From Escherichia coli (GTDB lineage Bacteria > Pseudomonadota > Gammaproteobacteria > Enterobacterales > Enterobacteriaceae), in NCBI RefSeq assembly GCF_003790525.1, contig NZ_CP033635.1: DNA of 64,000 bases. One strand, 5' to 3'. The first letter of the stretch is position 1, and each line of letters starts with the position of its first letter. Below, in pieces: positions 4,759-57,469 of the stretch. The notes below the pieces were generated by a model. It searched no databases and was not told the origin of the DNA. It worked only from the letters and a program-made list of their open reading frames with translations. The position numbers and the translations under genes were made by a program.

Positions 4759-4797
4759 TGTTAAGCATGATAACGCCTTTTAGGGGCAATTTAAAAG

Positions 4798-4814
4798 TTG
4801 GCACAGTTTTCGCT
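4798..4814 (+). promoter_or_regulatory. Sigma-54 promoter glnAp2
   Basis: ttggcacagttttcgct: -24 GG / -12 GC spacing typical of sigma-54, about 85 nt upstream of the glnA ATG. Confidence 0.75.
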
Positions 4815-4897
4815 TTATCTTTTTTACGGCGACACGGCCAAAATAATTGCAGATTTCGTTACCACGACGACCATGACCAATCCAGGAGAGTTAAAGT

Positions 4898-6307
4898 ATG
4901 TCCGCTGAACACGTACTGACGATGCTGAACGAGCACGAAGTGAAGTTTGTTGATTTGCGCTTCACCGATACCAAAGGTAAAGAACAGCACGTCACTATCC
5001 CTGCTCATCAGGTGAATGCCGAATTCTTCGAAGAAGGCAAAATGTTTGACGGCTCCTCGATTGGCGGCTGGAAAGGCATTAATGAATCCGATATGGTGCT
5101 GATGCCAGACGCATCCACCGCAGTGATTGACCCGTTCTTCGCCGATTCTACCCTGATTATCCGTTGCGACATCCTTGAACCTGGCACCCTGCAAGGCTAT
5201 GACCGTGACCCGCGCTCTATTGCGAAGCGCGCCGAAGATTACCTGCGTTCTACTGGCATTGCCGACACCGTACTGTTCGGGCCAGAACCTGAATTCTTCC
5301 TGTTCGATGACATCCGTTTCGGATCGTCTATCTCCGGTTCCCACGTTGCTATCGACGATATCGAAGGTGCATGGAACTCCTCCACCCAATACGAAGGTGG
5401 TAACAAAGGTCACCGTCCGGCAGTGAAAGGCGGTTACTTCCCGGTTCCGCCGGTAGACTCTGCTCAGGATATTCGTTCTGAAATGTGTCTGGTGATGGAA
5501 CAGATGGGTCTGGTGGTTGAAGCCCATCACCACGAAGTAGCGACTGCTGGTCAGAACGAAGTGGCTACCCGCTTCAATACCATGACCAAAAAAGCTGACG
5601 AAATTCAGATCTACAAATATGTTGTGCACAACGTAGCGCACCGCTTCGGTAAAACTGCGACCTTTATGCCAAAACCGATGTTCGGTGATAACGGTTCCGG
5701 TATGCACTGCCACATGTCGCTGTCTAAAAACGGCGTCAACCTGTTCGCAGGCGACAAATACGCAGGTCTGTCTGAGCAGGCGCTGTACTATATTGGCGGC
5801 GTAATCAAACACGCGAAAGCGATTAATGCCCTGGCAAACCCGACCACCAACTCTTACAAGCGTCTGGTCCCGGGCTACGAAGCACCGGTAATGCTGGCTT
5901 ACTCTGCGCGTAACCGTTCTGCGTCTATCCGTATTCCGGTGGTTTCTTCTCCGAAAGCACGTCGTATCGAAGTACGTTTCCCGGACCCGGCGGCTAACCC
6001 GTACCTGTGTTTTGCTGCCCTGCTGATGGCCGGTCTTGACGGTATCAAGAACAAGATCCATCCGGGCGAAGCCATGGACAAAAACCTGTATGACCTGCCG
6101 CCGGAAGAAGCGAAAGAGATCCCACAGGTTGCTGGTTCTCTGGAAGAAGCACTGAACGAACTGGATCTGGACCGCGAGTTCCTGAAAGCCGGTGGCGTGT
6201 TCACTGATGAAGCGATCGATGCGTACATCGCTCTGCGTCGCGAAGAAGATGACCGTGTGCGTATGACTCCGCATCCGGTAGAGTTTGAGCTGTACTACAG
6301 CGTCTAA
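4898..6307 (+). CDS. glnA: Glutamine synthetase
   Basis: 469-aa [38 protein letters not shown]...; canonical GlnA. Confidence 0.97.
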
Positions 6308-6367
6308 TAGTTGAAGTTGTACTACCCGGCGCAACAACGCTGGGATTTAGTTGCCGTGGAAACTTTC

Positions 6368-6393
6368 AGCCCATCTCTGCATGGGCTTTTTTC
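6368..6393 (+). terminator. glnA rho-independent terminator
   Basis: Hairpin agcccatctctgcatgggct followed by TTTTTT. Confidence 0.7.
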
Positions 6394-6442
6394 TCCGTCA
6401 ATTCTCTGATGCTTCGCGCTTTTTATCCGTAAAAAGCTATAA

Positions 6443-6459
6443 TGCACTAAAATGGTGCA
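6443..6459 (+). promoter_or_regulatory. NtrC site overlapping the glnL promoter
   Basis: tgcactaaaatggtgca dyad about 25 nt upstream of the glnL start. Confidence 0.65.
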
Positions 6460-6480
6460 ACCTGTTCAGGAGACTGCTTT

Positions 6481-7530
6481 ATGGCAACAGGCACGCAGCC
6501 CGATGCTGGGCAGATCCTCAACTCGCTGATTAACAGTATTTTGTTAATTGATGACAATCTGGCGATCCATTACGCCAACCCCGCCGCGCAACAACTGCTC
6601 GCCCAAAGCTCCCGCAAATTGTTTGGTACGCCGTTACCGGAACTGTTGAGCTACTTCTCATTAAATATCGAGCTGATGCAAGAAAGTCTGGAGGCGGGGC
6701 AAGGCTTTACCGATAACGAAGTGACGCTGGTCATCGACGGGCGCTCGCATATCCTTTCTGTGACGGCTCAGCGTATGCCGGACGGCATGATCCTGCTGGA
6801 GATGGCACCGATGGATAACCAGCGCCGCTTAAGTCAGGAACAGCTACAGCACGCCCAGCAGGTTGCTGCCCGTGATTTAGTGCGCGGCCTGGCACATGAG
6901 ATTAAAAATCCGCTTGGCGGTTTACGTGGCGCGGCGCAGCTGCTCAGCAAAGCATTACCTGACCCGTCACTACTCGAATATACCAAAGTGATTATCGAAC
7001 AGGCGGACCGGCTGCGAAATCTGGTCGACCGTCTGTTGGGGCCGCAGCTGCCCGGTACGCGTATTACCGAAAGTATTCACAAAGTGGCTGAACGCGTGGT
7101 GACGCTGGTGTCGATGGAACTGCCGAGCAACGTGCGGTTGATTCGGGATTACGACCCCAGCCTGCCGGAACTGGCGCACGACCCGGATCAAATTGAACAG
7201 GTCTTGCTGAATATTGTGCGCAATGCGCTACAGGCGCTGGGGCCGGAGGGTGGTGAAATCATTCTGCGTACCCGCACCGCGTTTCAACTGACCTTACACG
7301 GCGAGCGTTATCGGCTGGCGGCGCGAATTGATGTGGAAGATAACGGGCCAGGTATTCCGCCTCATTTGCAGGATACGCTGTTTTACCCGATGGTCAGCGG
7401 CCGCGAAGGTGGCACCGGGCTTGGCTTATCCATCGCCCGTAATTTGATTGATCAGCATTCAGGCAAAATTGAATTTACCAGTTGGCCAGGTCATACCGAG
7501 TTCTCGGTTTACCTGCCTATCAGGAAATAA
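6481..7530 (+). CDS. glnL: Nitrogen-regulation sensor histidine kinase NtrB (NRII)
   Basis: 349-aa ORF with H-box ([12 protein letters not shown]) and ATPase motifs; directly follows glnA. Confidence 0.95.
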
Positions 7531-7541
7531 AGGTGACGTTT

Positions 7542-8951
7542 ATGCAACGAGGGATAGTCTGGGTAGTCGATGACGATAGTTCCATCCGTTGGGTGCTTGA
7601 ACGTGCGCTCGCTGGAGCGGGTTTAACCTGTACGACATTTGAGAACGGCGCGGAAGTACTGGAGGCGCTGGCGAGCAAAACGCCGGATGTGCTGCTTTCA
7701 GATATCCGTATGCCGGGAATGGACGGGCTGGCGCTGCTCAAGCAGATTAAACAGCGCCATCCGATGCTTCCGGTCATCATTATGACCGCACATTCCGATC
7801 TGGATGCTGCCGTCAGCGCCTATCAACAAGGGGCGTTTGATTATCTGCCCAAACCGTTTGATATCGACGAAGCCGTCGCGCTGGTTGAGCGCGCCATCAG
7901 TCATTACCAGGAACAGCAGCAGCCGCGTAATGTTCAGCTTAACGGCCCAACGACCGATATCATCGGCGAAGCGCCAGCCATGCAGGACGTGTTCCGTATT
8001 ATCGGTCGGCTTTCGCGTTCTTCTATTAGCGTGCTGATTAACGGCGAATCCGGCACCGGTAAAGAACTGGTCGCTCATGCCCTGCATCGCCACAGTCCGC
8101 GAGCCAAAGCGCCATTTATCGCGCTGAATATGGCTGCTATCCCGAAGGATTTGATCGAATCAGAACTGTTTGGTCACGAGAAAGGCGCATTTACCGGCGC
8201 GAATACCATTCGTCAGGGGCGTTTTGAACAGGCTGATGGCGGTACATTATTCCTCGATGAAATTGGCGATATGCCGCTGGATGTGCAGACGCGTTTGCTG
8301 CGCGTGCTGGCAGACGGTCAGTTTTATCGCGTTGGCGGCTATGCGCCGGTGAAAGTGGATGTGCGGATTATCGCTGCCACTCACCAGAATCTTGAACAGC
8401 GGGTGCAGGAAGGTAAGTTCCGTGAGGATCTGTTCCACCGCCTGAACGTTATCCGCGTTCATCTGCCGCCATTGCGTGAGCGTCGGGAAGATATTCCCCG
8501 TCTGGCACGCCATTTTTTACAGGTTGCCGCGCGCGAACTGGGCGTAGAAGCGAAGTTGCTGCATCCGGAAACCGAAGCCGCGCTGACGCGCCTGGCGTGG
8601 CCAGGCAACGTGCGCCAGCTGGAAAACACCTGTCGCTGGCTAACGGTGATGGCCGCCGGGCAGGAAGTGTTGATTCAGGATTTGCCCGGTGAACTGTTTG
8701 AATCAACGGTTGCGGAGAGTACTTCGCAAATGCAACCGGACAGTTGGGCGACACTTTTAGCGCAGTGGGCAGACAGAGCGCTGCGTTCCGGTCATCAAAA
8801 CCTGCTTTCCGAAGCGCAGCCTGAGCTGGAGCGGACGTTACTGACGACCGCGTTGCGACATACGCAGGGGCATAAACAGGAAGCGGCGCGGCTACTCGGC
8901 TGGGGCCGCAACACCCTGACGCGTAAGTTAAAAGAGCTAGGGATGGAGTGA
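7542..8951 (+). CDS. glnG: Sigma-54-dependent response regulator NtrC (NRI)
   Basis: Start taken at ATG 7542 ([14 protein letters not shown]); receiver domain, AAA+ GESGTGKE and GAFTGA motifs present. The track ORF starts further upstream at 7482, inside glnL. Confidence 0.95.
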
Positions 8952-9062
8952 TTCACGGCTTGTGAGTAAAGATTGATTATTGAGCGCAAATTGCTGGTAT
9001 TTTGCGCTTTACTGTTCCGATAAGTTCAGTATGATCTTGCCCGGAAAACGGGGAGAGTCATT

Positions 9063-9173
9063 ATGCTGGAATCAATAATTAATCTGGTATCGAGTGGCGC
9101 AGTTGACAGCCACACACCACAAACTGCCGTTGCTGCCGTGCTGTGTGCCGCGATGATTGGGCTGTTTAGTTGA
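9063..9173 (+). CDS. yshB: Small protein (36 aa)
   Basis: ATG at 9063 preceded by gggga; translates MLESIINLVSSGAVDSHTPQTAVAAVLCAAMIGLFS; matches my memory of the small ORF between glnG and hemN. Confidence 0.5.
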   Translation: MLESIINLVSSGAVDSHTPQTAVAAVLCAAMIGLFS

Positions 9174-9205
9174 GTTTCAGATTGCTGATGAAGTGCTCTT
9201 TGTTC

Positions 9206-9295
9206 ATGCCGGATGCGGCGTGAACGCCTTATCCGGCCTGCAAAAGCAATATTTTCAACAGGTTTTGTAGGCCTGATAAGCGTAGCGCATCAGGC
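9206..9295. repeat. REP (repetitive extragenic palindrome) pair
   Basis: gccggatgcggcgtgaacgccttatccggcc and aggcctgataagcgtagcgcatcaggca, typical REP consensus. Confidence 0.8.
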
Positions 9296-9362
9296 AATCT
9301 TGTTCTCAGCACATTGATGGCGCTTTCGTTTTCTACTTTGTAAACGAAGCGCCATTCACTAT

Positions 9363-10736
9363 TTAAATCACCCGTGAGAACTGCTGCATCCGCGCTTTCT
9401 GGCGCAGATAGGTATCAAAGCACATGCAAATGTTGCGGATCAGCAAGCGACCTTTCGCCGTCACCTGAATCCCCTTCTCATCCACATCCACCAGCCCATC
9501 TTTTGCTAACGGGGCGAGCAGCTTGAGATCTTCCGCAAAGTAATCAGCGAAGTGCAAATCCCACTGTTGCTCAATGGGAGCGTAATCCAGACGGAAGTTG
9601 CAGATGAGCGACTTAATCACATCGCGGCGAATACAGTCATCACGCGTTAGCGCAATACCACGCCACAGCGCGTTGCCTTGTTCATCCACTTGCTGATAGT
9701 AGTGCTTCAACTCTTTCTGGTTCTGCGCGTAGCAGTCGCCAATCATACTGATGGCGGAAACGCCCATCCCCAGCAGATCGGTATCGCCCTGAGTGGTGTA
9801 GCCCTGGAAGTTACGATGCAGCACGCCTTCACGCTGGGCCACCGCCAGCTCGTCATCCGGGCGGGCAAAGTGATCCATCCCGATAAACTGATAGCCCGAT
9901 TGCGTCAGGAAGGCAATGGTTTCCTGCAGGATATCGAGTTTTTGCTGCGGACTCGGCAGGTCAGCATCTTTGATTTTGCGCTGAGCAGCAAAAATGGTCG
10001 GCAAATGCGCGTAGTTAAAGACGCTCAGACGATCGGGGTTCAGCTCCGCCACACGTTTCAGGGTAAAGGCAAAACTTTCCGGCGTCTGTTTCGGCAGACC
10101 GTAAATCAGGTCGATGTTGGTGGAGGTAAAGCCAATCTCACGCGCATGGTTAAGCAGTGCAAAGATGAACTCTTCATCCTGCTCGCGGTTAACCAGACGC
10201 TGTACTTCTTTGTTGAAGTCCTGCACGCCCATGCTCAGGCGATTAAAGTCCTCGGCGCGTAAATGATCGAGTACATCCAGTTCGATTTCGCGCGGATCGA
10301 CTTCGATCGAAATCTCCGCATCGGCATTGAACTGGAAGTTTTCGCGCAGCAGCTTCATCAGACGGCTGATTTGCGCTTTGTTCAGATACGTCGGCGTACC
10401 ACCGCCCCAGTGCAGCTGGCTCACCTTGCGCCCGGCAAAAAGCGGTGCACGATGGACGATTTCTTGCTCCAGCGCGTCCAGATACTGATCGGCCTTGTGC
10501 TGCTGGCGAGTAACTATCTTATTGCAACCGCAGAAGTAACAAAGCTTATGGCAGAACGGAATATGTACGTAGAGAGATAATGGACGCTCAGGATAGCGCG
10601 CCACGGCTTGTAAAAACGCCTGTTCGCCGAAGTCTTCTGAAAACTCCAGCGCGGTCGGGTACGAGGTGTATCGTGGCCCGGAATAGTTATATTTCTGGAT
10701 CAGGGCCAGATCCCAGTCGATTTGCTGTACAGACAT
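9363..10736 (-). CDS. hemN: Oxygen-independent coproporphyrinogen III oxidase (radical SAM)
   Basis: ORF ...MSVQQIDWDLALIQKYNYSGPRYTSYPTALEF... with CxxxCxxC (CHKLCYFCGC); start taken at the second Met. Confidence 0.93.
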   Translation of the reverse strand: MSVQQIDWDLALIQKYNYSGPRYTSYPTALEFSEDFGEQAFLQAVARYPERPLSLYVHIPFCHKLCYFCGCNKIVTRQQHKADQYLDALEQEIVHRAPLFAGRKVSQLHWGGGTPTYLNKAQISRLMKLLRENFQFNADAEISIEVDPREIELDVLDHLRAEDFNRLSMGVQDFNKEVQRLVNREQDEEFIFALLNHAREIGFTSTNIDLIYGLPKQTPESFAFTLKRVAELNPDRLSVFNYAHLPTIFAAQRKIKDADLPSPQQKLDILQETIAFLTQSGYQFIGMDHFARPDDELAVAQREGVLHRNFQGYTTQGDTDLLGMGVSAISMIGDCYAQNQKELKHYYQQVDEQGNALWRGIALTRDDCIRRDVIKSLICNFRLDYAPIEQQWDLHFADYFAEDLKLLAPLAKDGLVDVDEKGIQVTAKGRLLIRNICMCFDTYLRQKARMQQFSRVI

Positions 10737-10924
10737 GCTCACTCCTTCCGATGGCGTCTCTGGCGGCTACGGCGTACCGGCGGATGCCCGTTTCGGGTCA
10801 TCAGCCGGTTGCGCAGCCACTTTTGTCGCCGCGACAACCGCTGTAGTTTAACGAATAACCACACCAGATAACATATAACCGGAAGGGTTATCAGCAGAAC
10901 GGGAAGGCCCACGGCGGCAATCCG

Positions 10925-11434
10925 TTAGTTGCCCCGCAGCAGACGCATCATGTCTTCTTGCTTCTCGTCTTCTTCCTCTTCTTCGTCATCGTCATAAGAG
11001 AGGCCGAGTTTCTGCATCAACTCATCAATACGATCCAGTTTAGCATCCACCCAGGATTGCTCTTCGGCGCTCAGGGTTTCGCCTGCTTCCAGACGTTCCA
11101 GCAGCGCATCCAGACGCTCATCCGTTTCCAGTAATTCCAACTCCGCCTGCGGTGAAAGCATAGGTTTCTCACTCTTCGGTTTGTGCTGTTTGGTGACTTT
11201 TTCAGTCACGCCCAATGGAATAGGGGTTTTACTGCCAATACGTGGATCTTTTGGTGCGTTCTGGCCTTTGCTGCCTGACGAGGTGTTACCGCCCGCTGCG
11301 CGGCTGCCCGGCGCATGACCACGACGTTTTTTCTGACGCTTACGGTCACGAGCTTCCTGATCCAGCTCCTCGCGTGTTTTTCGACGCGCTTTTGCATGAC
11401 CTTTGCTGCGTGAGTTTGAAGATGATGGTTTCAT
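10925..11434 (-). CDS. yihI: Der GTPase-activating protein YihI
   Basis: Basic N-terminus and acidic C-terminus ([22 protein letters not shown]); start taken at [11 protein letters not shown]. Confidence 0.85.
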
Positions 11435-11502
11435 AATGGTTCGTCTTTTAGCCGTTTTATTCAGTATAGATTTGCGGCGGAATCTAACAGAAAGCAAGCA
11501 AA

Positions 11503-11745
11503 GAAAAAAGGCGACAGATTACTCTGTCGCCTTTTTTCCTGACTCATAACCCTTAACGGGTCTTACAATCCTTGCAGGCCGCCAACACACCCTGTTTTTC
11601 CATTAGCCGGAACAATCCGTGTTGATTCCATTTCCGTTTAATTACGTCTCCGGACGTTTGTCTTCCTGACAATCCTCTGTCTTCGCCTCCTGGCGCTCCT
11701 GACCCTCATCCTGAGTCATTGTTCCTGTTAGCGTCCTCGCTCTAT
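11503..11745 (-). ncRNA. csrC: CsrC sRNA (CsrA-sequestering)
   Basis: Minus-strand sequence carries many GGA motifs (caggatgagggtcaggagcgccaggaggcgaagacagaggattgtcaggaaga...) and ends in the hairpin ggcgacagagtaatctgtcgcc plus a T-run; sits between yihI and engB. Ends approximate. Confidence 0.7.
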
Positions 11746-12015
11746 GGGTGCTACTTTACGCCTTTGCTTTAAACAAACAATCAACCGCCATCAGTATTTG
11801 CACATTTTCAGAGTTTTATATAAAAGCAATTAACTGATTTATATAGCTTATTTGACATGCGTCGCAGAATTTTCTCTGCTATTTCGCATAAAGACTATCG
11901 GCAATGTCTCACAAAGCGTATGGCTTTTACTTACAACGCTCACGCCGAAAAATCCGCCTTTTATTATGGTTCAGGTATAATCGCCGCAAAGCTTTGACTG
12001 ACGGAGACGACCGCT

Positions 12016-34995: not shown

Positions 34996-35112
34996 CTTGC
35001 CGGATGCGGCGTGAACGCCTTATCCGGTCTACCGATCCTGCACCAATATAGGCCTGATAAGACGCGCCAGCGTCGCATCAGGCATCGTGCACCGATTGCC
35101 GGATGCGACATA
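34996..35112. repeat. REP element cluster
   Basis: Repeated gccggatgcg..cgccttatccgg and ggcctgataagacgcg...catcaggca units. Confidence 0.8.
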
Positions 35113-51793: not shown

Positions 51794-52603
51794 ATGGCAA
51801 CAACACAACAATCTGGATTTGCACCTGCTGCATCGCCTCTCGCTTCGACCATCGTTCAGACTCCGGACGACGCGATTGTGGCGGGCTTCACCTCTATCCC
51901 TTCACAAGGGGATAACATGCCTGCTTACCATGCCAGACCAAGGCAAAGCGATGGCCCACTGCCAGTGGTCATTGTAGTGCAGGAAATTTTTGGCGTGCAT
52001 GAACATATCCGCGATATTTGTCGCCGTCTGGCGCTGGAGGGGTATCTGGCTATCGCACCTGAACTTTACTTCCGCGAAGGCGATCCGAATGATTTTGCCG
52101 ATATCCCTACGCTGCTTAGCGGTCTGGTAGCAAAAGTGCCTGACTCGCAGGTGCTGGCCGATCTCGATCATGTCGCCAGTTGGGCTTCCCGCAACGGCGG
52201 CGATGTTCATCGTTTAATGATCACCGGATTCTGCTGGGGTGGACGTATCACCTGGCTGTATGCCGCGCATAATCCACAACTGAAAGCAGCGGTGGCATGG
52301 TACGGCAAATTAACCGGCGATAAGACGCTGAATTCACCGAAACAACCTGTTGATATCGCAACCGATCTTAACGCGCCGGTTCTCGGCTTATATGGTGGTC
52401 AGGATAACAGCATTCCGCAAGAGAGTGTGGAAACGATGCGCCAGGCGCTGCGGGCAGCAAACGCGAAAGCAGAGATTATCGTGTACCCGGATGCAGGGCA
52501 TGCGTTCAACGCCGATTATCGTCCGAGCTATCATGCCGAGTCTGCGAAAGACGGCTGGCAGCGAATGTTGGAATGGTTTACACAGTATGGTGTTAAAAAG
52601 TAA
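51794..52603 (+). CDS. ysgA: Dienelactone-hydrolase-family protein
   Basis: Start taken at MATTQQSGFAPAASPLASTIVQT; alpha/beta hydrolase with CWGG nucleophile elbow. Confidence 0.85.
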   Translation: MATTQQSGFAPAASPLASTIVQTPDDAIVAGFTSIPSQGDNMPAYHARPRQSDGPLPVVIVVQEIFGVHEHIRDICRRLALEGYLAIAPELYFREGDPNDFADIPTLLSGLVAKVPDSQVLADLDHVASWASRNGGDVHRLMITGFCWGGRITWLYAAHNPQLKAAVAWYGKLTGDKTLNSPKQPVDIATDLNAPVLGLYGGQDNSIPQESVETMRQALRAANAKAEIIVYPDAGHAFNADYRPSYHAESAKDGWQRMLEWFTQYGVKK

Positions 52604-52669
52604 CGCCATAGTCGCTAAATCTGATGATTAAGCTCACACAATTTCAACGATTTTTTTAATCTCAAAACC

Positions 52670-52698
52670 ATACAGCATCAAAAAATTTGTTGCTGTAT
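52670..52698. promoter_or_regulatory. 8-bp perfect inverted repeat with A/T-rich 13-bp spacer, candidate regulator site upstream of the hydrolase operon
   Basis: atacagca-tcaaaaaatttgt-tgctgtat; a related copy gcaaaaatttcgttgctgt lies at 52747-52765. Confidence 0.45.
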
Positions 52699-52859
52699 GC
52701 CACTCTTTGACTCCCTTCACATTCGTCATCACACCACCTGCTGAATGCAAAAATTTCGTTGCTGTGCGGCAAACTTTTTTCCTGTTTTGTGCCGCTTTTC
52801 TCCTGAATACTCGTTCTCAGAACAACTGGATCGTTTAAACATCAGACAGGAGATTTACC

Positions 52860-53528
52860 ATGACGCAATCCATTTTTCAGGCTCAACCCTTTGAATTACC
52901 TTTTGATCCGCGCACAACTGCACTGGTCATGATCGACATGCAGCGTGACTTTGTCGAAGCAGGGGGCTTCGGTGAGGCACTGGGCAATGATGTTTCACTG
53001 GTACGCACGGCTATCGCACCATGTACAGAGGTGCTGGCAGCCGCACGTCAAAAAGGAATTATGGTTATTCATACTCGTGAAGGCCATCGTGCAGACTTAA
53101 GCGACTGCCCGCCAGCCAAACTGACGCGCGGCGGAAAAACCTTTATTGGTGAACCAGGACCGATGGGACGCATTCTGGTCAGAGGTGAAGCAGGTCATGA
53201 CATCATTCCTGAACTGTACCCGGTGGCAGGCGAACCGGTGATTGATAAGCCTGGCAAAGGCGCGTTTTATCAAACCGACTTACATCTGATTTTGCAAAAC
53301 CACGGTATCAAGACGCTGATAGTTTGTGGTGTTACAACCGAAGTTTGCGTAACCACCACCGTGCGCGAAGCAAATGATCGTGGCTATGAATGCATTATCC
53401 CGGAAGATTGTGTCGGCTCCTATTTCCCGGAATTCCAGAAATACGCCCTCGAGATGATCAAAGCACAAGGTGCCATTTTCGGTTGGGTTACTGATTCCAA
53501 AGCCATTATTGCAGGCCTGGAAGGCTAA
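52860..53528 (+). CDS. Isochorismatase-fold cysteine hydrolase (amidohydrolase; RutB/BiuH/CSHase-like)
   Basis: 222-aa ORF with aggag RBS; motifs ALVMIDMQRDF (Asp) and LIVCGVTTEVCV (catalytic Cys context) typical of this subfamily. Confidence 0.75.
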   Translation: MTQSIFQAQPFELPFDPRTTALVMIDMQRDFVEAGGFGEALGNDVSLVRTAIAPCTEVLAAARQKGIMVIHTREGHRADLSDCPPAKLTRGGKTFIGEPGPMGRILVRGEAGHDIIPELYPVAGEPVIDKPGKGAFYQTDLHLILQNHGIKTLIVCGVTTEVCVTTTVREANDRGYECIIPEDCVGSYFPEFQKYALEMIKAQGAIFGWVTDSKAIIAGLEG

Positions 53529-53533
53529 CACCG

Positions 53534-54394
53534 ATGGTACAGGTTACGCTTTGCGCATCGTCGTTGGGATATCTTTTCCCGCAGAATGAAACGCAAGATT
53601 TACGTCTACATAGCGCTTTTAAACATGCGGTAAATCTGTATTCAGACGCGGGAACATTCATCACTCTGTTGTGTGCGCAAACGTATCTGAATCTCCCTGA
53701 TGCAGCCAGAGTCTGGCTACCTGAATGTTGGGACTGGCGAAGAGAGATTGCCCATTCAGATCCCATTCAGTTAACCCCAGGCTTACTGCGGACACCTCGA
53801 TTTTGTGTGGCGCTCGAAAACGCAACGCTCTGGCAGTCGCCATTTGTGGGGGGAATGCTGACACTTGAGGCATTCCCTTTGGTTTTCCAGCACTACCCAA
53901 CGATGGCATCGCAACGGCTTTTATTTTGTCTGGAACATAACGTTCAAAGCACATTGCACCTGCCGGATAGTCTCACGCACCAGGGATTAGCGATTATGGA
54001 GCATCCAGATGCGCTGGAACGCCAGGTGCCACAACTGATCGGCTTTGGTAAAGGCTTAACGCCCGATGGAGATGACTATTTGTTGGGCTATCTGGCAGCA
54101 CTCTGGTTATGGCAACTCCCTGCACCACTTGCCGATCATCAATACCGGTTGCAGCAGGTAATTGATCAACATGCGCACAACACCACGGATATCAGTCGTC
54201 ATTATCTGGAGCGTGCGCTTCAGGGACATTTTTCAGAACCGATTTGCCAGTTACTCGCACAACTGGTTGGGAGTGCATCGGCAATGACAATCGCATCCTG
54301 TGCAGAACAGGTCATGCAATTTGGCGCAACGTCAGGAGTAGATTGCCTTGCAGGAATGCTGCATGGCTTTCGAACCCTGAACACCATAAATTGA
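53534..54394 (+). CDS. DUF2877-family protein (YahE/YlbF-like)
   Basis: 286-aa ORF starting 5 nt after the preceding stop; resembles YahE / AllH-type proteins that accompany FdrA-like genes (from memory). Confidence 0.6.
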   Translation: MVQVTLCASSLGYLFPQNETQDLRLHSAFKHAVNLYSDAGTFITLLCAQTYLNLPDAARVWLPECWDWRREIAHSDPIQLTPGLLRTPRFCVALENATLWQSPFVGGMLTLEAFPLVFQHYPTMASQRLLFCLEHNVQSTLHLPDSLTHQGLAIMEHPDALERQVPQLIGFGKGLTPDGDDYLLGYLAALWLWQLPAPLADHQYRLQQVIDQHAHNTTDISRHYLERALQGHFSEPICQLLAQLVGSASAMTIASCAEQVMQFGATSGVDCLAGMLHGFRTLNTIN

Positions 54395-54488
54395 TTTCAA
54401 CCTTTTCTCCCGTAGCCCGTTTATGGGGCTACACGGGGATGCTTTGCCCGAATTTTGCTATCGGGCGGAATGAAACAGGCGTAACAGC

Positions 54489-56048
54489 ATGAAAGTTAAA
54501 TATAAAGTTTTCAGTAATCTTTATCAGGACTCAGTTTCTCTGATGCAGATTTCCGCGCAAATCAGCAAGTTGCCCGGTATTCAACAGGCCTCGGTCGTCA
54601 TGGGAACACCCAATAATCTCGAGCAATTGAGCGATGCGGGTCTGGGTAACGAAATCAACGCCAGTCCCAATGATTTAGTGATTGCAGTCATGGGTGAAGA
54701 AGATATTTGCAATGAAGCACTGGTACTGGCCCAGCAACGTCTGACCAGCAAACCCGATGATGAAACGGATAGTGGCATTAAAACACCGGAAAAGGTCAGC
54801 CTGGAAATGGCACTGGAAGCCGAGCCCGAAGCCAACCTGGCACTCATTTCTGTACCGGGAGACTACGCCGCCGCCGAAGCAATTAAAGCGTTAAACCTCG
54901 GAATGAACGTGATGATGTTCAGCGATAACGTCAGTATCGTGCAGGAAAAATCCATCAAAACGCTTGCCCGAGAACGTCAGCGCATCGTAATGGGACCTGA
55001 CTGTGGAACCGCCATTGTTAACGGCATTCCGTTAGGCTTCGCTAATGTGGTGAAACGCGGAGCAATTGGTGTTATTGGCGCGTCAGGCACCGGGCTACAG
55101 GAAGTGACTTGCCGAATCGACCAGCTCGGAGCGGGTATTTCTCAGGCGTTGGGAACAGGCGGACATGATCTCAGTGAAGAGATTGGTGGAATATCGATGC
55201 TCTTCGCTTTAGATGCGCTGGCGCAAGACGATGAAACTCGCGTGATTGTGCTTATTTCAAAACCGCCTTCACCGATCGTTGCCCGGACTATTCTGGAGCG
55301 TGCCGAGGCTTGTGGAAAACCCGTGGTGGTGAATTTCCTCGGTGCGAATCCGCATGATCTGGCACGTCCCAATATCACCGCGGCCACCACACTTGCCAGC
55401 GCCGCAAATATCGCCGTGGCGTTACTGAATGATCAACCACTTCCGACTATCGAGACCGAAATTTCCTGCGACGATCTCACAATGTTACAAAACGCCTGCC
55501 AGCGCCTGCCAGCCCATCGCCAGGCGATACGCGGTGTTTTCGCCGGAGGAACCTTCTGCTACGAAGCGCAACTTATCTGCCAACAAAAGGGATTCAGCGC
55601 AGCCTCCAATACGCCAGTTGCGGGTAATCGTGCTCTGGCAAATATCTGGCAAAGCGAAGATCACACGTTGATCGATATGGGCGACGATGATTTCACCCGT
55701 GGCAAACCGCATCCAATGATCGACCCGACTCTGCGCAATCAACGTCTGCTCAACGAACTCAACGACTCACACACTGCCGTCGTGTTATTCGACCTGGTAC
55801 TTGGTTATGGCGCTTCCACGACGCCTGCCAGCGAATTACTGGACCAACTTTCACACATCGACATGAATAACGCACCGTTGCTGATTGCGCACGTTTGCGG
55901 AACGGAAGCTGATCCGCAAATACGCAGTCAGCAGATAAGCGCACTACAAAATGCAGGGGTCATCATCGCCAGCAGCAATGCACAGGCGGCGTTATGGGCC
56001 AGCACCGTTGCACAGACTCAGTTGCAGAAAAAGGGGCTAAACGCATGA
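54489..56048 (+). CDS. FdrA/YahF-like protein (succinyl-CoA-synthetase-alpha-like, CoA-binding fold)
   Basis: 519-aa ORF with Gly-rich nucleotide/CoA-binding-like segments (VIGASGTGLQEV, GTGGHD). Confidence 0.7.
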   Translation: MKVKYKVFSNLYQDSVSLMQISAQISKLPGIQQASVVMGTPNNLEQLSDAGLGNEINASPNDLVIAVMGEEDICNEALVLAQQRLTSKPDDETDSGIKTPEKVSLEMALEAEPEANLALISVPGDYAAAEAIKALNLGMNVMMFSDNVSIVQEKSIKTLARERQRIVMGPDCGTAIVNGIPLGFANVVKRGAIGVIGASGTGLQEVTCRIDQLGAGISQALGTGGHDLSEEIGGISMLFALDALAQDDETRVIVLISKPPSPIVARTILERAEACGKPVVVNFLGANPHDLARPNITAATTLASAANIAVALLNDQPLPTIETEISCDDLTMLQNACQRLPAHRQAIRGVFAGGTFCYEAQLICQQKGFSAASNTPVAGNRALANIWQSEDHTLIDMGDDDFTRGKPHPMIDPTLRNQRLLNELNDSHTAVVLFDLVLGYGASTTPASELLDQLSHIDMNNAPLLIAHVCGTEADPQIRSQQISALQNAGVIIASSNAQAALWASTVAQTQLQKKGLNA

Positions 56049-57469
56049 ATACCTTATTTAATCAGCCTTTGAAGGTTGTGAACGCGGGACTACACAGTTT
56101 TGCTGACAATATTCAACATGCCGGGGGAAGCGCAATTGCACTCAACTGGCAGCCACCAGCACAAGGCGATATTGACGCTGGATTGGATCTGGCATCGTTG
56201 CTACGTCATCCCCTGGTAGAAAATGCCAACCAAATCGCCATGACACGTTATCTCGAAGCACAGCCCGTGCTGGTGGATGTCATGCTCGCTAAAGAGGCCA
56301 TTCCAGAAATGGCTGAACAAAAACGTATTTTGCACTCTGGCCCGCCGATTGCCTGGGAAGAGATGTGTGGTCCGGTAAAAGGGGCGATTATTGGTGCCAT
56401 GCTGTACGAAGGTTGGGCCACCAGCCAGCAAGACGCTGAAAACCAAATAAACGCAGGCGAAATCGACCTTGCCCCTTGTCATCATTATCACGCGGTTGGC
56501 CCAATGGCAGGCATCATCAGCCCGTCGATGCCGTTATGGGTGGTAGAAAACAAAACCAACGGCCACCGTACTTTTAGCAATTTCAATGAAGGTCTGGGTA
56601 AGGTTCTCCGTTTTGGCGCCAATAACGATGAAGTTCTCAATCGTCTGGCCTGGATGCGCGATGAACTGGCGCCGGCAATGAAAGCAGCAATCGCACAACA
56701 CGGCGAGCTGGAACTCAAGCCATTAATGGCGCAGGCGCTGCATATGGGGGATGAAGTTCATAACCGCAATGCTGCCGCTACCGGTTTGCTGATTAAGCGC
56801 CTGCTCCCGGCATTGCTGGCCTGCTCTCTTCCACAGGAACATATCCAGCGCGTCGTGGCATTTATCACCGGTAACGATCACTTCTTCCTCAATCTTTCGA
56901 TGGCCGCCTGTAAAGCAATGATGGATGCCGCCGCCAATGTACCGTTCAGTTCAATGGTTACGGTGATGGCGCGTAACGGGGTGAATTTTGGTATTCGGCT
57001 TTCCGGTACTGGCGATCGCTGGTTCCAGGCTCCTGCCAATGCCGTTGAAGGTCTGTTCTTCCCCGGATTTGGCGTCGACGATGCCGCTGCTGACCTGGGT
57101 GATAGCGCAATTACTGAAACCGCAGGTGTGGGTGGCTTCGCGATGGCGTCGTCTCCGGCGATCGTCAAATTTGTGGGAGGCACCCCTGCCGATGCCACCA
57201 ATAACAGCCGTCGGATGCAAGCCGTCACCCTCGGCGGTAACCCCGCATTTACACTTCCAGCCCTCAATTTTGCCCCCACCGCAGCAGGGATTGATGCGCG
57301 TAAAGTGACCGATCGCGGCATTTTACCGGTCATCAATACGGGTATCGCCCACAAACAAGCGGGGGTCGGGCAAATTGGTGCCGGGATCACCACTGCGCCG
57401 ATGGCCTGTTTTGTCGCCGCTGTACGTGCACTGGCGGAGATCGTCGCAAAGGAGAACCATCATGGTTAA
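56045..57469 (+). CDS. DUF1116-family protein (YahG/YlbE-like)
   Basis: Start at ATG 56045 overlapping the FdrA-like stop (ATGA); aagggg RBS 8 nt upstream; 474 aa. Confidence 0.65.
   Translation: MNTLFNQPLKVVNAGLHSFADNIQHAGGSAIALNWQPPAQGDIDAGLDLASLLRHPLVENANQIAMTRYLEAQPVLVDVMLAKEAIPEMAEQKRILHSGPPIAWEEMCGPVKGAIIGAMLYEGWATSQQDAENQINAGEIDLAPCHHYHAVGPMAGIISPSMPLWVVENKTNGHRTFSNFNEGLGKVLRFGANNDEVLNRLAWMRDELAPAMKAAIAQHGELELKPLMAQALHMGDEVHNRNAAATGLLIKRLLPALLACSLPQEHIQRVVAFITGNDHFFLNLSMAACKAMMDAAANVPFSSMVTVMARNGVNFGIRLSGTGDRWFQAPANAVEGLFFPGFGVDDAAADLGDSAITETAGVGGFAMASSPAIVKFVGGTPADATNNSRRMQAVTLGGNPAFTLPALNFAPTAAGIDARKVTDRGILPVINTGIAHKQAGVGQIGAGITTAPMACFVAAVRALAEIVAKENHHG

What the first reader, a model, noticed from the sequence alone, without database searches (positions are those of the whole stretch)
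54395..54488. Two short hairpins in the 94-bp gap between the DUF2877 and FdrA-like genes
gtagccc-gtttatg-gggctac and gcccga-attttgctat-cgggc lie in the only sizeable intergenic gap inside the operon, and the FdrA-like gene has a weak Shine-Dalgarno. They could act as an mRNA processing or stability element, or an attenuator setting expression of the distal genes.
Basis: seen in the sequence. Interest (0 to 1): 0.25.

Follow-up and report, generated by a model that had tools for sequence, protein, structure and literature searches.

The report
Conserved two-hairpin RNA between operon genes
The two hairpins are real and are kept, through compensating base changes, in the same gene gap across more than ten bacterial genera, so they form a functional, previously uncatalogued structure in the messenger RNA, though what it does has not been tested.

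Summary
HP1 lies at 54406-54439: a 7-bp inner stem at 54412-54432 plus a 5-bp outer stem. HP2 lies at 54443-54469 with 9 bp. The 66-nt core folds to exactly this structure (-31.7 kcal/mol, z = -4.0).

The window is an E. coli accessory island: cysteine hydrolase, AllH-like/DUF2877, the gap, then FdrA/AllF-like, AllG-like, carbamate kinase, AH_C and permease.

In 25 distinct orthologous gaps from Escherichia to Serratia and IncF/Klebsiella-type plasmids:
- The same layout recurs: HP1, a 10-nt linker, HP2, an A/C-rich spacer, AGG(U), ATG.
- 96.8% of cells are paired, against 36-48% in slid controls.
- 15 of 21 pairs changed on both sides.
- G.U pairs outnumber A.C mismatches 39 to 4, so the sense-strand RNA is the structured molecule.

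It is not in Rfam and is not a REP element, terminator, promoter or small ORF. I found no conserved masking of the Shine-Dalgarno site.

Best reading (inferred, about 0.4): a processing and segmental-stability module. HP1 caps the upstream mRNA segment, HP2 caps the downstream one, and HP2 keeps the fdrA ribosome-binding site open. The main rival is an operator for an unknown trans-acting factor. I class it as a new member of a known kind, of moderate interest.

The parts
54392..54394 (+). TGA stop codon of the AllH-like (DUF2877) gene. The HP1 outer stem starts 12 nt downstream.
54406..54410 (+). HP1 outer helix, 5' strand (UCUCC).
   Evidence: A comparable 3-6 bp extension forms in roughly 16-18 of the 25 orthologues (read off).
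54412..54432 (+). HP1 inner hairpin: a 7-bp stem (GUAGCCC/GGGCUAC) with a 7-nt loop. The structure is conserved but the sequence is not.
   Evidence: Helix 1 is 98.9% paired and 8 of its 9 pairs changed on both sides. Stem sequence identity to distant taxa is about 0.3.
54435..54439 (+). HP1 outer helix, 3' strand (GGGGA). It forms the first half of the 10-nt linker segment.
54440..54442 (+). Single-stranded linker UGC between the two hairpins. With the weak U.G base of HP2 it reads GC|UUU, the proposed endonuclease target.
   Evidence: Geometry. The cleavage itself is inferred and has not been shown.
54443..54469 (+). HP2: a 9-bp stem (UUUGCCCGA/UCGGGCGGA) with a 9-nt loop. The base UGCC/GGCR is conserved in sequence; the upper stem covaries.
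   Evidence: P2 stem identity to E. coli is 0.56-0.94 while 4-fold sites are saturated.
54470..54476 (+). A-rich spacer (AUGAAAC) between HP2 and the Shine-Dalgarno site. An A/C-rich spacer is present in most orthologues.
   Evidence: Mean unpaired probability over positions -15 to -5, which takes in the 3' end of this spacer and the SD, is about 0.5.
54477..54479 (+). Shine-Dalgarno core AGG of the FdrA-like gene. Most orthologues have ACAGGUA here.
54489..54491 (+). ATG start of the FdrA/AllF-like gene. This start is supported by N-terminal alignment in all 40 orthologous loci.

Best explanation
The gap encodes a conserved cis-acting RNA structure within the polycistronic mRNA: two adjacent stem-loops.

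HP1 sits just after the stop codon of the AllH-like gene. Only its shape is conserved. HP2 sits 20-26 nt before the FdrA-like start codon. Both its shape and its basal sequence UGCC/GGCR are conserved. The hairpins are separated by a fixed 10-nt segment, about half of which pairs back into the outer stem of HP1. This leaves 3-5 free nucleotides next to the weak U.G base of HP2.

Most likely mechanism (inferred):
- The module divides the transcript into two segments with different lifetimes.
- An endonuclease, most plausibly RNase E, cuts in or near the short linker (GC|UUU).
- Alternatively, 3'-to-5' decay simply stalls at HP1.
- HP1 then acts as a 3' cap protecting the cysteine-hydrolase and AllH segment.
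- HP2 ends up within a few nucleotides of the new 5' end. There it can protect the AllF, AllG, carbamate kinase and permease segment.
- HP2 also soaks up upstream sequence, so the A/C-rich ribosome landing site and the modest AGG(U) Shine-Dalgarno site of fdrA stay open.

Shown here: the structure, its conservation, its strand, its geometry and its restriction to this gene junction. Not shown: any cleavage, stability effect or expression effect.
For: - **Structure.** The 66-nt core has MFE equal to centroid equal to the two hairpins, z = -4.04. Orthologous cores give z from -0.9 to -4.3, and the tandem layout is the MFE in most of them.
- **Conservation at the junction.** Loci L002-L041 (40 loci) all have DUF2877 followed by FdrA. 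About 30 of them keep a gap of 77-146 nt. Ten further contigs show a gap at this junction (49-118 nt as called) in every case.
- **Covariation.** On 25 distinct sequences, 96.8% of 372 cells are paired, against 36-48% when partners are slid. 15 of 21 pairs changed on both sides, and 0 of 500 shuffles reach the observed values. An unfitted MAFFT alignment of the six closest sequences gives 92.6% against at most 43.5%, with 7 doubly changed pairs.
- **RNA, sense strand.** There are 39 G.U cells against 4 A.C cells.
- **Selection.** Four-fold degenerate sites of fdrA are saturated at 0.27-0.41 identity. HP1 stem sequence is equally scrambled (about 0.3) yet stays paired. HP2 stem sequence keeps 0.56-0.94 identity.
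- **Geometry.** The HP1-to-HP2 segment is 10 nt in 22 of 25 sequences. The three extra metagenome examples keep a stem ending 10 nt upstream as well, although that stem was not part of the search pattern. HP1 starts 13-21 nt after the stop codon in Enterobacteriaceae and Rahnella. The ribosome-binding region is predicted to be about half open on average, with no consistent masking.
- **From my own knowledge, not tested here.** 3' hairpins block exonucleases. 5' hairpins protect only when very few unpaired nucleotides precede them (ompA work of Emory, Bouvet and Belasco). RNase E prefers single-stranded U-rich sites next to structure.
Against: - No transcript data were available, so no processing site, differential abundance or half-life has been seen.
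- The free linker is only 3-5 nt and G/C-rich at its 5' side, which makes it a poor RNase E site. A fit to the RN|WUU preference holds for the Escherichia, Buttiauxella and Edwardsiella group but not for Citrobacter, Rahnella or Serratia (sequences).
- A generic stability hairpin would not need the sequence-conserved UGCC/GGCR base of HP2 or a fixed spacing. Both features fit recognition by a specific partner at least as well.
- The element is dispensable for the pathway. Orthologues with 32-60 nt gaps lack HP1. The K-12 paralogues yahE-yahF overlap with no gap.
- The 25-sequence alignment was fitted by hand to the structure, which inflates the percentage paired.
Confidence: 0.4

Rival explanations
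1. A translational operator or sensor. The tandem hairpins, especially the sequence-conserved base of HP2 and the fixed spacing, are the binding site of a specific trans-acting partner. That partner could be a protein (possibly encoded in the operon), a small RNA pairing to the A-rich spacer and Shine-Dalgarno site, or a small-molecule ligand in a riboswitch-like arrangement. Binding would gate translation of fdrA and the genes translationally coupled to it.
For: - The linker is fixed at 10 nt in 22 of 25 sequences, and HP2 has a conserved UGCC/GGCR base.
- The element lies immediately upstream of the ribosome landing site.
- Downstream genes overlap by 4 and 8 nt, so control of fdrA translation could propagate.
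- The element is restricted to this one gene junction, as expected for a pathway-specific regulator.
- No known RNA family matches.
Against: - Both loops vary freely in length and sequence.
- I saw no conserved loop-loop or loop-tail complementarity by inspection.
- There is no multi-helix junction.
- No conserved alternative fold masks the Shine-Dalgarno site or the AUG, so no expression platform is visible.
- GGA motifs of the CsrA type occur in the linker of only about 16 of 25 sequences, and not in loops.
- No candidate partner has been identified.
Confidence: 0.25
2. A purely structural insulator with no cleavage. The hairpins fold the untranslated spacer so that it cannot pair with the fdrA ribosome-binding site. 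They also offer no long unstructured C-rich stretch for Rho. The result is independent, steady initiation at fdrA after ribosomes leave the upstream gene.
For: - HP1 and HP2 are predicted to form at mean pair probabilities of 0.77 and 0.73 in longer context, while the translation initiation region stays about half unpaired.
- Some short-gap orthologues keep just one GC-rich hairpin directly before ACAGGUA (L026, L071).
- Only the shape of HP1 is conserved.
Against: - This does not explain why a 90-nt spacer is kept at all, when the paralogue yahE-yahF and several orthologues do without one.
- It does not explain the fixed 10-nt spacing or the conserved HP2 base sequence.
Confidence: 0.15
3. 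A transcriptional attenuator or partial intrinsic terminator that lowers read-through into the distal genes.
For: - The position between promoter-proximal and distal genes fits.
- In the Burkholderia sp. Leaf177 group, the second hairpin is followed by GCUUUUG.
Against: - In E. coli and all the Enterobacterales copies examined, neither hairpin is followed by a U tract.
- The terminator scan finds none in the gap on either strand.
- No competing antiterminator fold is conserved.
Confidence: 0.04
4. A DNA-level element: a palindromic operator for the island's LysR regulator, or an internal promoter (sigma-70 or sigma-54) for fdrA.
For: - HP1 is a 7-bp inverted repeat with a 7-bp spacer.
- The linker plus the HP2 base contains GG...TTGC, which is reminiscent of the -24/-12 elements.
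Against: - Stem sequences differ completely between genera while pairing is kept. G.U pairs (39) far outnumber A.C (4), which fits RNA rather than a protein-read DNA palindrome.
- There is no sigma-70-like site on the + strand in the gap.
- The GG-to-GC spacing is N9 rather than N10 in Escherichia, Buttiauxella and Edwardsiella (sequence).
- No sigma-54 activator is annotated in the island.
Confidence: 0.04
5. Chance hairpins, or a small ORF or leader peptide in the gap.
For: - E. coli has short ORFs in the gap, for example ATG 54439 giving MLCPNFAIGRNETGVTA, whose TGA overlaps the fdrA ATG.
- The peptide fragment LPEF recurs in several species.
Against: - The ORFs are not conserved in start codon, frame or length.
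- Indels are not multiples of three.
- The recurring peptide comes from the conserved GCUUUGCCCGAAUU read in one frame.
- Substitutions are compensatory in the stems rather than synonymous.
- The comparative data exclude chance.
Confidence: 0.03

Closest known systems
Intercistronic stem-loops that set segmental mRNA stability (for example the REP hairpins between malE and malF in E. coli, and the pufA-pufL hairpins in Rhodobacter). Cited from my own knowledge.
   Same: - It lies between two cistrons of one operon.
- The hairpins are stable and sit on the mRNA strand.
- One hairpin directly follows the upstream stop codon.
- The expected outcome is unequal expression of the two halves.
   Different: - It is not a dispersed repeat: there is one copy per genome, and it is unlike the REP copies in this window.
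- It has two hairpins at a fixed spacing.
- The second stem base is sequence-conserved, and the element travels with this operon across genera.
- No stability effect has been measured.
5'-terminal stem-loop stabilisers (the ompA 5' UTR type). Cited from my own knowledge.
   Same: HP2 would lie within a few nucleotides of the 5' end if the transcript is cut in the linker. It is followed by an unstructured ribosome-binding region.
   Different: Here the hairpin is internal to a polycistronic mRNA. A processed 5' end has not been demonstrated.
Guanidine-II (mini-ykkC) riboswitch, a tandem-hairpin riboswitch. Cited from my own knowledge, with Rfam searched here.
   Same: Two small hairpins in tandem just upstream of a Shine-Dalgarno site, in an operon of nitrogen-compound catabolism.
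   Different: - The defining conserved ACGR loops are absent.
- The loops here are variable.
- There is no Rfam match even at E <= 10 or at E <= 1 in seven orthologues.
Protein-binding translational operators made of paired hairpins (for example the thrS operator and ribosomal-protein leaders). Cited from my own knowledge.
   Same: Hairpins at a fixed spacing next to the ribosome-binding site, with a sequence-conserved stem base.
   Different: No binding partner is known, no molecular mimicry is evident, and the loops are not conserved.

Membership tests
Any Rfam 15 family | A covariance-model match at or near the family's gathering score | tested here: not met
   There is no hit in the gap at E <= 10 in window 52000-57000. 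There is also none at E <= 1 in seven diverse orthologous loci.
REP/BIME repetitive extragenic palindromes | Many dispersed copies per genome sharing the REP consensus | tested here: not met
   The 94-nt query finds a median of one place per genome in 1559 genomes. True REP copies in the window (9207-9239 and 34998-35030) are unrelated.
Intrinsic terminator / attenuator | A GC-rich hairpin followed directly by a U tract, plus a competing antiterminator fold for an attenuator | tested here: not met
   There is no terminator-like site in the gap. The sequence after HP1 is ACGGGGAUGC and after HP2 is AUGAAAC. No conserved alternative fold was found.
Riboswitch (guanidine-II type or other) | Invariant nucleotides in loops or junctions that form a ligand pocket | tested here: not met
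   Both loops vary in length (L1 4-29 nt, L2 3-13 nt) and in sequence. There are no ACGR loops.
Riboswitch (guanidine-II type or other) | An expression platform: a mutually exclusive fold that masks the Shine-Dalgarno site or forms a terminator | tested here: inconclusive
   The E. coli 97-mer has an alternative fold that pairs AUGCUUUGCCC with the Shine-Dalgarno and AUG region. That fold is not conserved. Mean Shine-Dalgarno accessibility is about 0.5 and flank-to-initiation-region duplexes give z of about 0.
Riboswitch (guanidine-II type or other) | Ligand binding | not testable with these tools
   This needs in-line probing or ITC with candidate metabolites.
Intercistronic mRNA stability/processing elements (a functional class) | A stable hairpin or hairpins on the mRNA strand between cistrons, maintained by selection | tested here: met
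Intercistronic mRNA stability/processing elements (a functional class) | Processed RNA ends at the element, or different half-lives or abundance of the flanking segments | not testable with these tools
   No transcriptome data were accessible. No paper on this element was found.
Sigma-54 promoter | GG-N10-GC spacing of the -24 and -12 elements | tested here: not met
   In E. coli, Buttiauxella and Edwardsiella the spacing is GG-N9-GC (sequences). It fits only in Rahnella and Serratia.
Small ORF / leader peptide | An ORF with conserved start, frame and length | tested here: not met
CsrA binding sites | Two GGA motifs, typically in hairpin loops, with one overlapping the Shine-Dalgarno site | tested here: not met
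   GGA occurs in the linker of about 16 of 25 sequences and never in the loops. The Shine-Dalgarno site is AGG(U/C) in most.

The most novel reading that the evidence does not exclude
The tandem hairpin is an undescribed pathway-specific cis-regulatory RNA. It would be a riboswitch-like sensor or the operator of an operon-encoded protein, placed between cistrons. It would gate translation of the AllF-like, AllG-like and carbamate kinase half of an uncharacterised N-heterocycle catabolic operon. The operon is spread by horizontal transfer among Enterobacterales and on plasmids, with a possibly related form in Burkholderiaceae.
Probability: 0.15. Interest if true: 0.6.

Novelty: new member of a known kind. 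Interest (0 to 1): 0.35.

Why it matters
**Annotation.** If the element is functional, as the covariation strongly suggests, it is a conserved structured RNA motif that current annotation and Rfam miss.

**Where it sits.** It lies in an accessory island carried by about 29% of complete E. coli genomes (1559 of 5426) and by conjugative IncF plasmids. The BEN2908 comparison paper lists the island as region GR29, shared with model intestinal and extraintestinal strains.

**Biology.** The element would show how the two halves of an oxamate-carbamoyltransferase-like catabolic operon are expressed at different levels without a second promoter.

**Practical use.** It offers a compact natural two-hairpin part for tuning expression within operons. 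It is also a simple test case for asking whether a fixed hairpin spacing reflects nuclease geometry or a binding partner.

**Limits.** It does not overturn anything known.

Tried and rejected
- **Rfam at permissive thresholds.** Searched on the window and on seven orthologues; nothing in the gap.
- **tRNA/tmRNA-like fold.** None found.
- **Dispersed repeat or REP.** One copy per genome; unrelated to the REPs in the window.
- **Sigma-70 promoter or intrinsic terminator.** None on the + strand in the gap.
- **Sigma-54 promoter.** The spacing is off by one in the E. coli clade (by eye).
- **Small ORFs.** Not conserved.
- **N-terminal extension of FdrA from the UUG in CUUUGCC.** It is open in frame in about 40% of sequences, which is the chance expectation. 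E. coli has an in-frame UGA.
- **Long-range pairing of the pyrimidine-rich 5' flank with the Shine-Dalgarno site (translational coupling by unmasking).** Seen in the E. coli MFE, but the mean z is +0.13 across 25 sequences.
- **Pseudoknot, or loop-loop or loop-tail pairing.** Only sporadic 3-5-bp matches by eye. One example is Citrobacter On2M, with L1 CAGAU against L2 AUCUG. None is conserved.
- **SECIS-like reading of the UGA stop.** Other species use UAA, and read-through gives only 7 codons.
- **A second covariance model.** The narrow model R1, built from six sequences, scored distant members poorly and misaligned HP1 of the B. izardii group. I used a hand alignment padded with N instead.
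- **Metagenome pattern scan.** It gave 42 hits, of which 39 lie inside long ORFs of GC-rich contigs and are chance matches.
- **Strain HH45.** Its apparent half-deletion of the gap is a poly-G run in the assembly.
- **Literature.** No paper on an RNA element in this operon.

Full report
**Observation.**
- The gap runs from 54395 to 54488, between the TGA of the upstream gene (54392-54394) and the ATG at 54489.
- The first hairpin is as described: GUAGCCC/GGGCUAC, 54412-54432, with a 7-nt loop.
- It extends by a 5-bp outer helix (54406-54410 with 54435-54439) across a small internal loop.
- The second hairpin extends to 9 pairs (54443-54451 with 54461-54469), and its two basal pairs are U.G.
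- The whole gap folds at -32.9 kcal/mol, z = -2.55.
- The 66-nt core gives the two hairpins as both MFE and centroid, at -31.7 kcal/mol, z = -4.04, with 0 of 200 shuffles as stable.
- The opposite strand folds about as well, so single-sequence folding does not identify the functional strand.

**Context.**
- The window is E. coli. The 700 bases around the gap are 100% identical to SMS-3-5 and many other strains.
- The region is present in 1559 of 5426 complete genomes, with about 125 copies on plasmids.
- It lies in an accessory island inserted between ysgA/udp and metE.
- Gene order: cysteine hydrolase (isochorismatase family), DUF2877/AllH-like, the gap, FdrA/AllF-like, DUF1116/AllG-like, carbamate kinase, an allophanate-hydrolase C-terminal-domain protein, a cytosine/purine permease and a LysR regulator.
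- AllF, AllG and AllH are the subunits of oxamic transcarbamylase in the K-12 allantoin pathway (PMC11326118).
- The island is region GR29 of the BEN2908 paper, which guessed at pyrimidine-nitrogen catabolism and mentions no RNA element (PMC12928451).
- Junctions inside the operon are 5, 94, -4, -8, 16 and 25 nt, with 77 nt before the LysR gene.

**Comparative evidence.**
- One scan of representative genomes returned 40 loci (L002-L041) with the same DUF2877-to-FdrA order.
- About 30 of these keep a gap of 77-146 nt. The rest have 32-60 nt.
- Ten more contigs, reached through homologous DUF2877 proteins, also have a gap at this junction, of 49-118 nt as called.
- In 25 distinct Enterobacterales and plasmid sequences the gap has one architecture: HP1, then a 10-nt segment, then HP2, then an A/C-rich spacer, then ACAGG(U/C), then 5-9 nt, then ATG. 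The 10-nt segment holds in 22 of 25 sequences; the others have 11 or 12 nt.
- These sequences come from Escherichia, Citrobacter, Salmonella, Buttiauxella, Edwardsiella, Budvicia, Rahnella, Serratia, Chania, Limnobaculum and a Klebsiella/IncF-plasmid type.

**Covariation counts.**
- I aligned the sequences by hand on these landmarks, padded with N so that MAFFT left the columns untouched, and counted pairs.
- 96.8% of 372 cells are standard pairs, against 36-48% when the 3' partners are slid by 1-3 columns.
- 15 of 21 pairs changed on both sides, and no shuffle out of 500 reaches any of the observed measures.
- Because that alignment was fitted to the structure, I repeated the count on an unfitted MAFFT alignment of the six closest sequences. 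This gave 92.6% paired against at most 43.5%, with 7 doubly changed pairs.
- A per-sequence null asks for a stem of at least 5 bp ending exactly 10 nt before HP2. It succeeds in 5-34% of dinucleotide shuffles. The real sequences have such a stem in at least eight lineages whose stem sequences are unrelated.

**Strand and selection.**
- G.U pairs outnumber A.C mismatches 39 to 4, so the structured molecule is the sense-strand RNA, that is, the mRNA.
- Four-fold degenerate sites in fdrA are saturated against E. coli at 0.27-0.41 identity.
- HP1 stem sequence is equally scrambled in distant taxa (about 0.3) yet stays 98.9% paired.
- HP2 stem sequence keeps 0.56-0.94 identity.
- HP1 is therefore conserved in shape only. 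HP2 is conserved in shape and in its basal sequence UGCC/GGCR.
- Caballeronia and Burkholderia orthologues have a hairpin with the same layout as HP1: outer helix, 2-nt bulge and inner helix. The rest of their gap differs, and I did not establish homology.

**Specificity.**
- The 94-nt sequence has no second copy in any E. coli genome at blastn sensitivity.
- A covariance model built from six sequences hits only this gap in the 64-kb window and the orthologous gaps elsewhere.
- That model finds nothing in the K-12 paralogous clusters. There yahE and yahF overlap by 11 nt, and fdrA follows a divergent promoter region.
- A metagenome scan used a pattern covering only the HP2 base and the ACAGGTA motif. 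It gave 42 hits.
- 39 of these lie inside long ORFs of unrelated GC-rich contigs and are chance matches.
- The other three all sit between a DUF2877 gene and an FdrA gene. Each has a stem ending 10 nt upstream of HP2, as in the main set, even though HP1 was not part of the pattern.

**What it is not.** I excluded each of the following:
- A match to any Rfam family, even at permissive thresholds.
- A tRNA-like fold.
- A REP element; genuine REPs occur elsewhere in the window.
- A sigma-70 promoter on the + strand or an intrinsic terminator in the gap.
- A sigma-54 promoter; the GG-to-GC spacing is off by one in the E. coli clade (by eye).
- A conserved small ORF.
- Conserved masking of the Shine-Dalgarno site or start codon. 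Mean unpaired probability is about 0.5, and duplexes between the flank and the initiation region are no better than shuffles.
- Conserved loops, or loop-loop or loop-tail pairing (by eye).

**Mechanism.**
- Shown: a cis-acting RNA structure in the mRNA, under selection, tied to this one gene junction, with a fixed geometry.
- Inferred: its role.
- The geometry fits a module that separates two mRNA segments. HP1 follows the stop codon by about a dozen nucleotides, where a 3' protective hairpin would sit.
- HP2 sits 20-26 nt before the ATG. It would lie within a few nucleotides of a 5' end created by a cut in the 3-5-nt free linker. That is the position in which 5' hairpins are known to protect (my own knowledge).
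- HP2 also leaves the A/C-rich landing site and the modest Shine-Dalgarno site open.
- I put this at about 0.4.
- The fixed spacing and the conserved base sequence of HP2 fit a specific binding partner at least as well. I give an operator or sensor reading about 0.25, and a no-cleavage structural insulator about 0.15.
- An attenuator, a DNA-level site, a small ORF and chance are each below 0.05.

**Novelty and caveats.**
- Intercistronic stem-loops that tune operon expression are a known kind. This particular conserved motif is not in Rfam or in the literature I could search. I class it as a new member of a known kind, of moderate interest.
- The main alignment is hand-fitted.
- The outer helix of HP1 slips in register between species, so I did not score it for covariation.
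- Relatedness of the sequences inflates the shuffle statistics.
- The element is absent from short-gap orthologues, so the pathway does not require it.
- No expression data were examined.

Noticed in passing
L072:1-1957 (E. coli contig JAVAHE010000046). The same paralogue type occurs on Klebsiella, Citrobacter and Enterobacter plasmids (L032, L038).: In the plasmid-type paralogue, the AllH-FdrA-AllG cluster is preceded by an AtzD/TrzD-family ring amidohydrolase (cyanuric acid amidohydrolase or barbiturase) and a xanthine/uracil permease. This hints that these gene sets degrade an N-heterocycle rather than allantoin.
   Followed up: no
window 54439-54492: An E. coli-specific 17-codon ORF (MLCPNFAIGRNETGVTA) starts at the ATG in GGGGATGC. 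It ends with a TGA that overlaps the fdrA ATG (ATGA). It is present in the E69 allele but absent in other genera.
   Followed up: partly
L076 (plasmid pHS13-1-IncF, NZ_CP026494.1), locus 4760-12700: The whole island, LysR gene included, is also carried on conjugative IncF plasmids a few kb from bacteriocin immunity and HNH genes. About 125 plasmid copies occur among complete E. coli genomes. The plasmid allele of the gap differs from the window by a single base (AATGAAAC to AATGGAAC).
   Followed up: partly
L074:4926-7326 (E. coli K-12 yahE-yahF): The K-12 paralogous pair yahE (DUF2877) and yahF (FdrA-like) has the same gene order but overlaps by 11 nt, with no gap and no hairpins.
   Followed up: yes
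L030:1813-1871 (- strand), Limnobaculum allomyrinae: An Rfam SECIS_3 match above its gathering score (82.9 against 63 bits) lies about 2 kb upstream of the operon. It presumably belongs to a selenoprotein gene.
   Followed up: no
window 56501-56576 (- strand): A weak fluoride-riboswitch-like match (20.2 bits, gathering score 34, E = 0.03) lies antisense within the span of the DUF1116 gene. It is probably noise.
   Followed up: no
window 9207-9239 and 34998-35030; also 9230-9296 and 12683-12749: These are classical REP/BIME-type palindromic repeats (TGCCGGATGCGGCGTGAACGCCTTATCCGG...). They are unrelated to the gap hairpins.
   Followed up: no
L077:1501-1620 (E. coli HH45, NZ_CP116411.1): After the first 40 nt of the gap, the record turns into a long poly-G run. 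The upstream genes are annotated as frameshifted, and metE follows 1.2 kb later. This is probably an assembly artefact or a degraded island.
   Followed up: partly
L026:4850-4900 and L071:3347-3395: Short-gap orthologues (49-51 nt) keep a single GC-rich hairpin (UCGGGC-UAC-GCCCGA type) directly before CAACAGGUA. This may be a minimal form of HP2.
   Followed up: no
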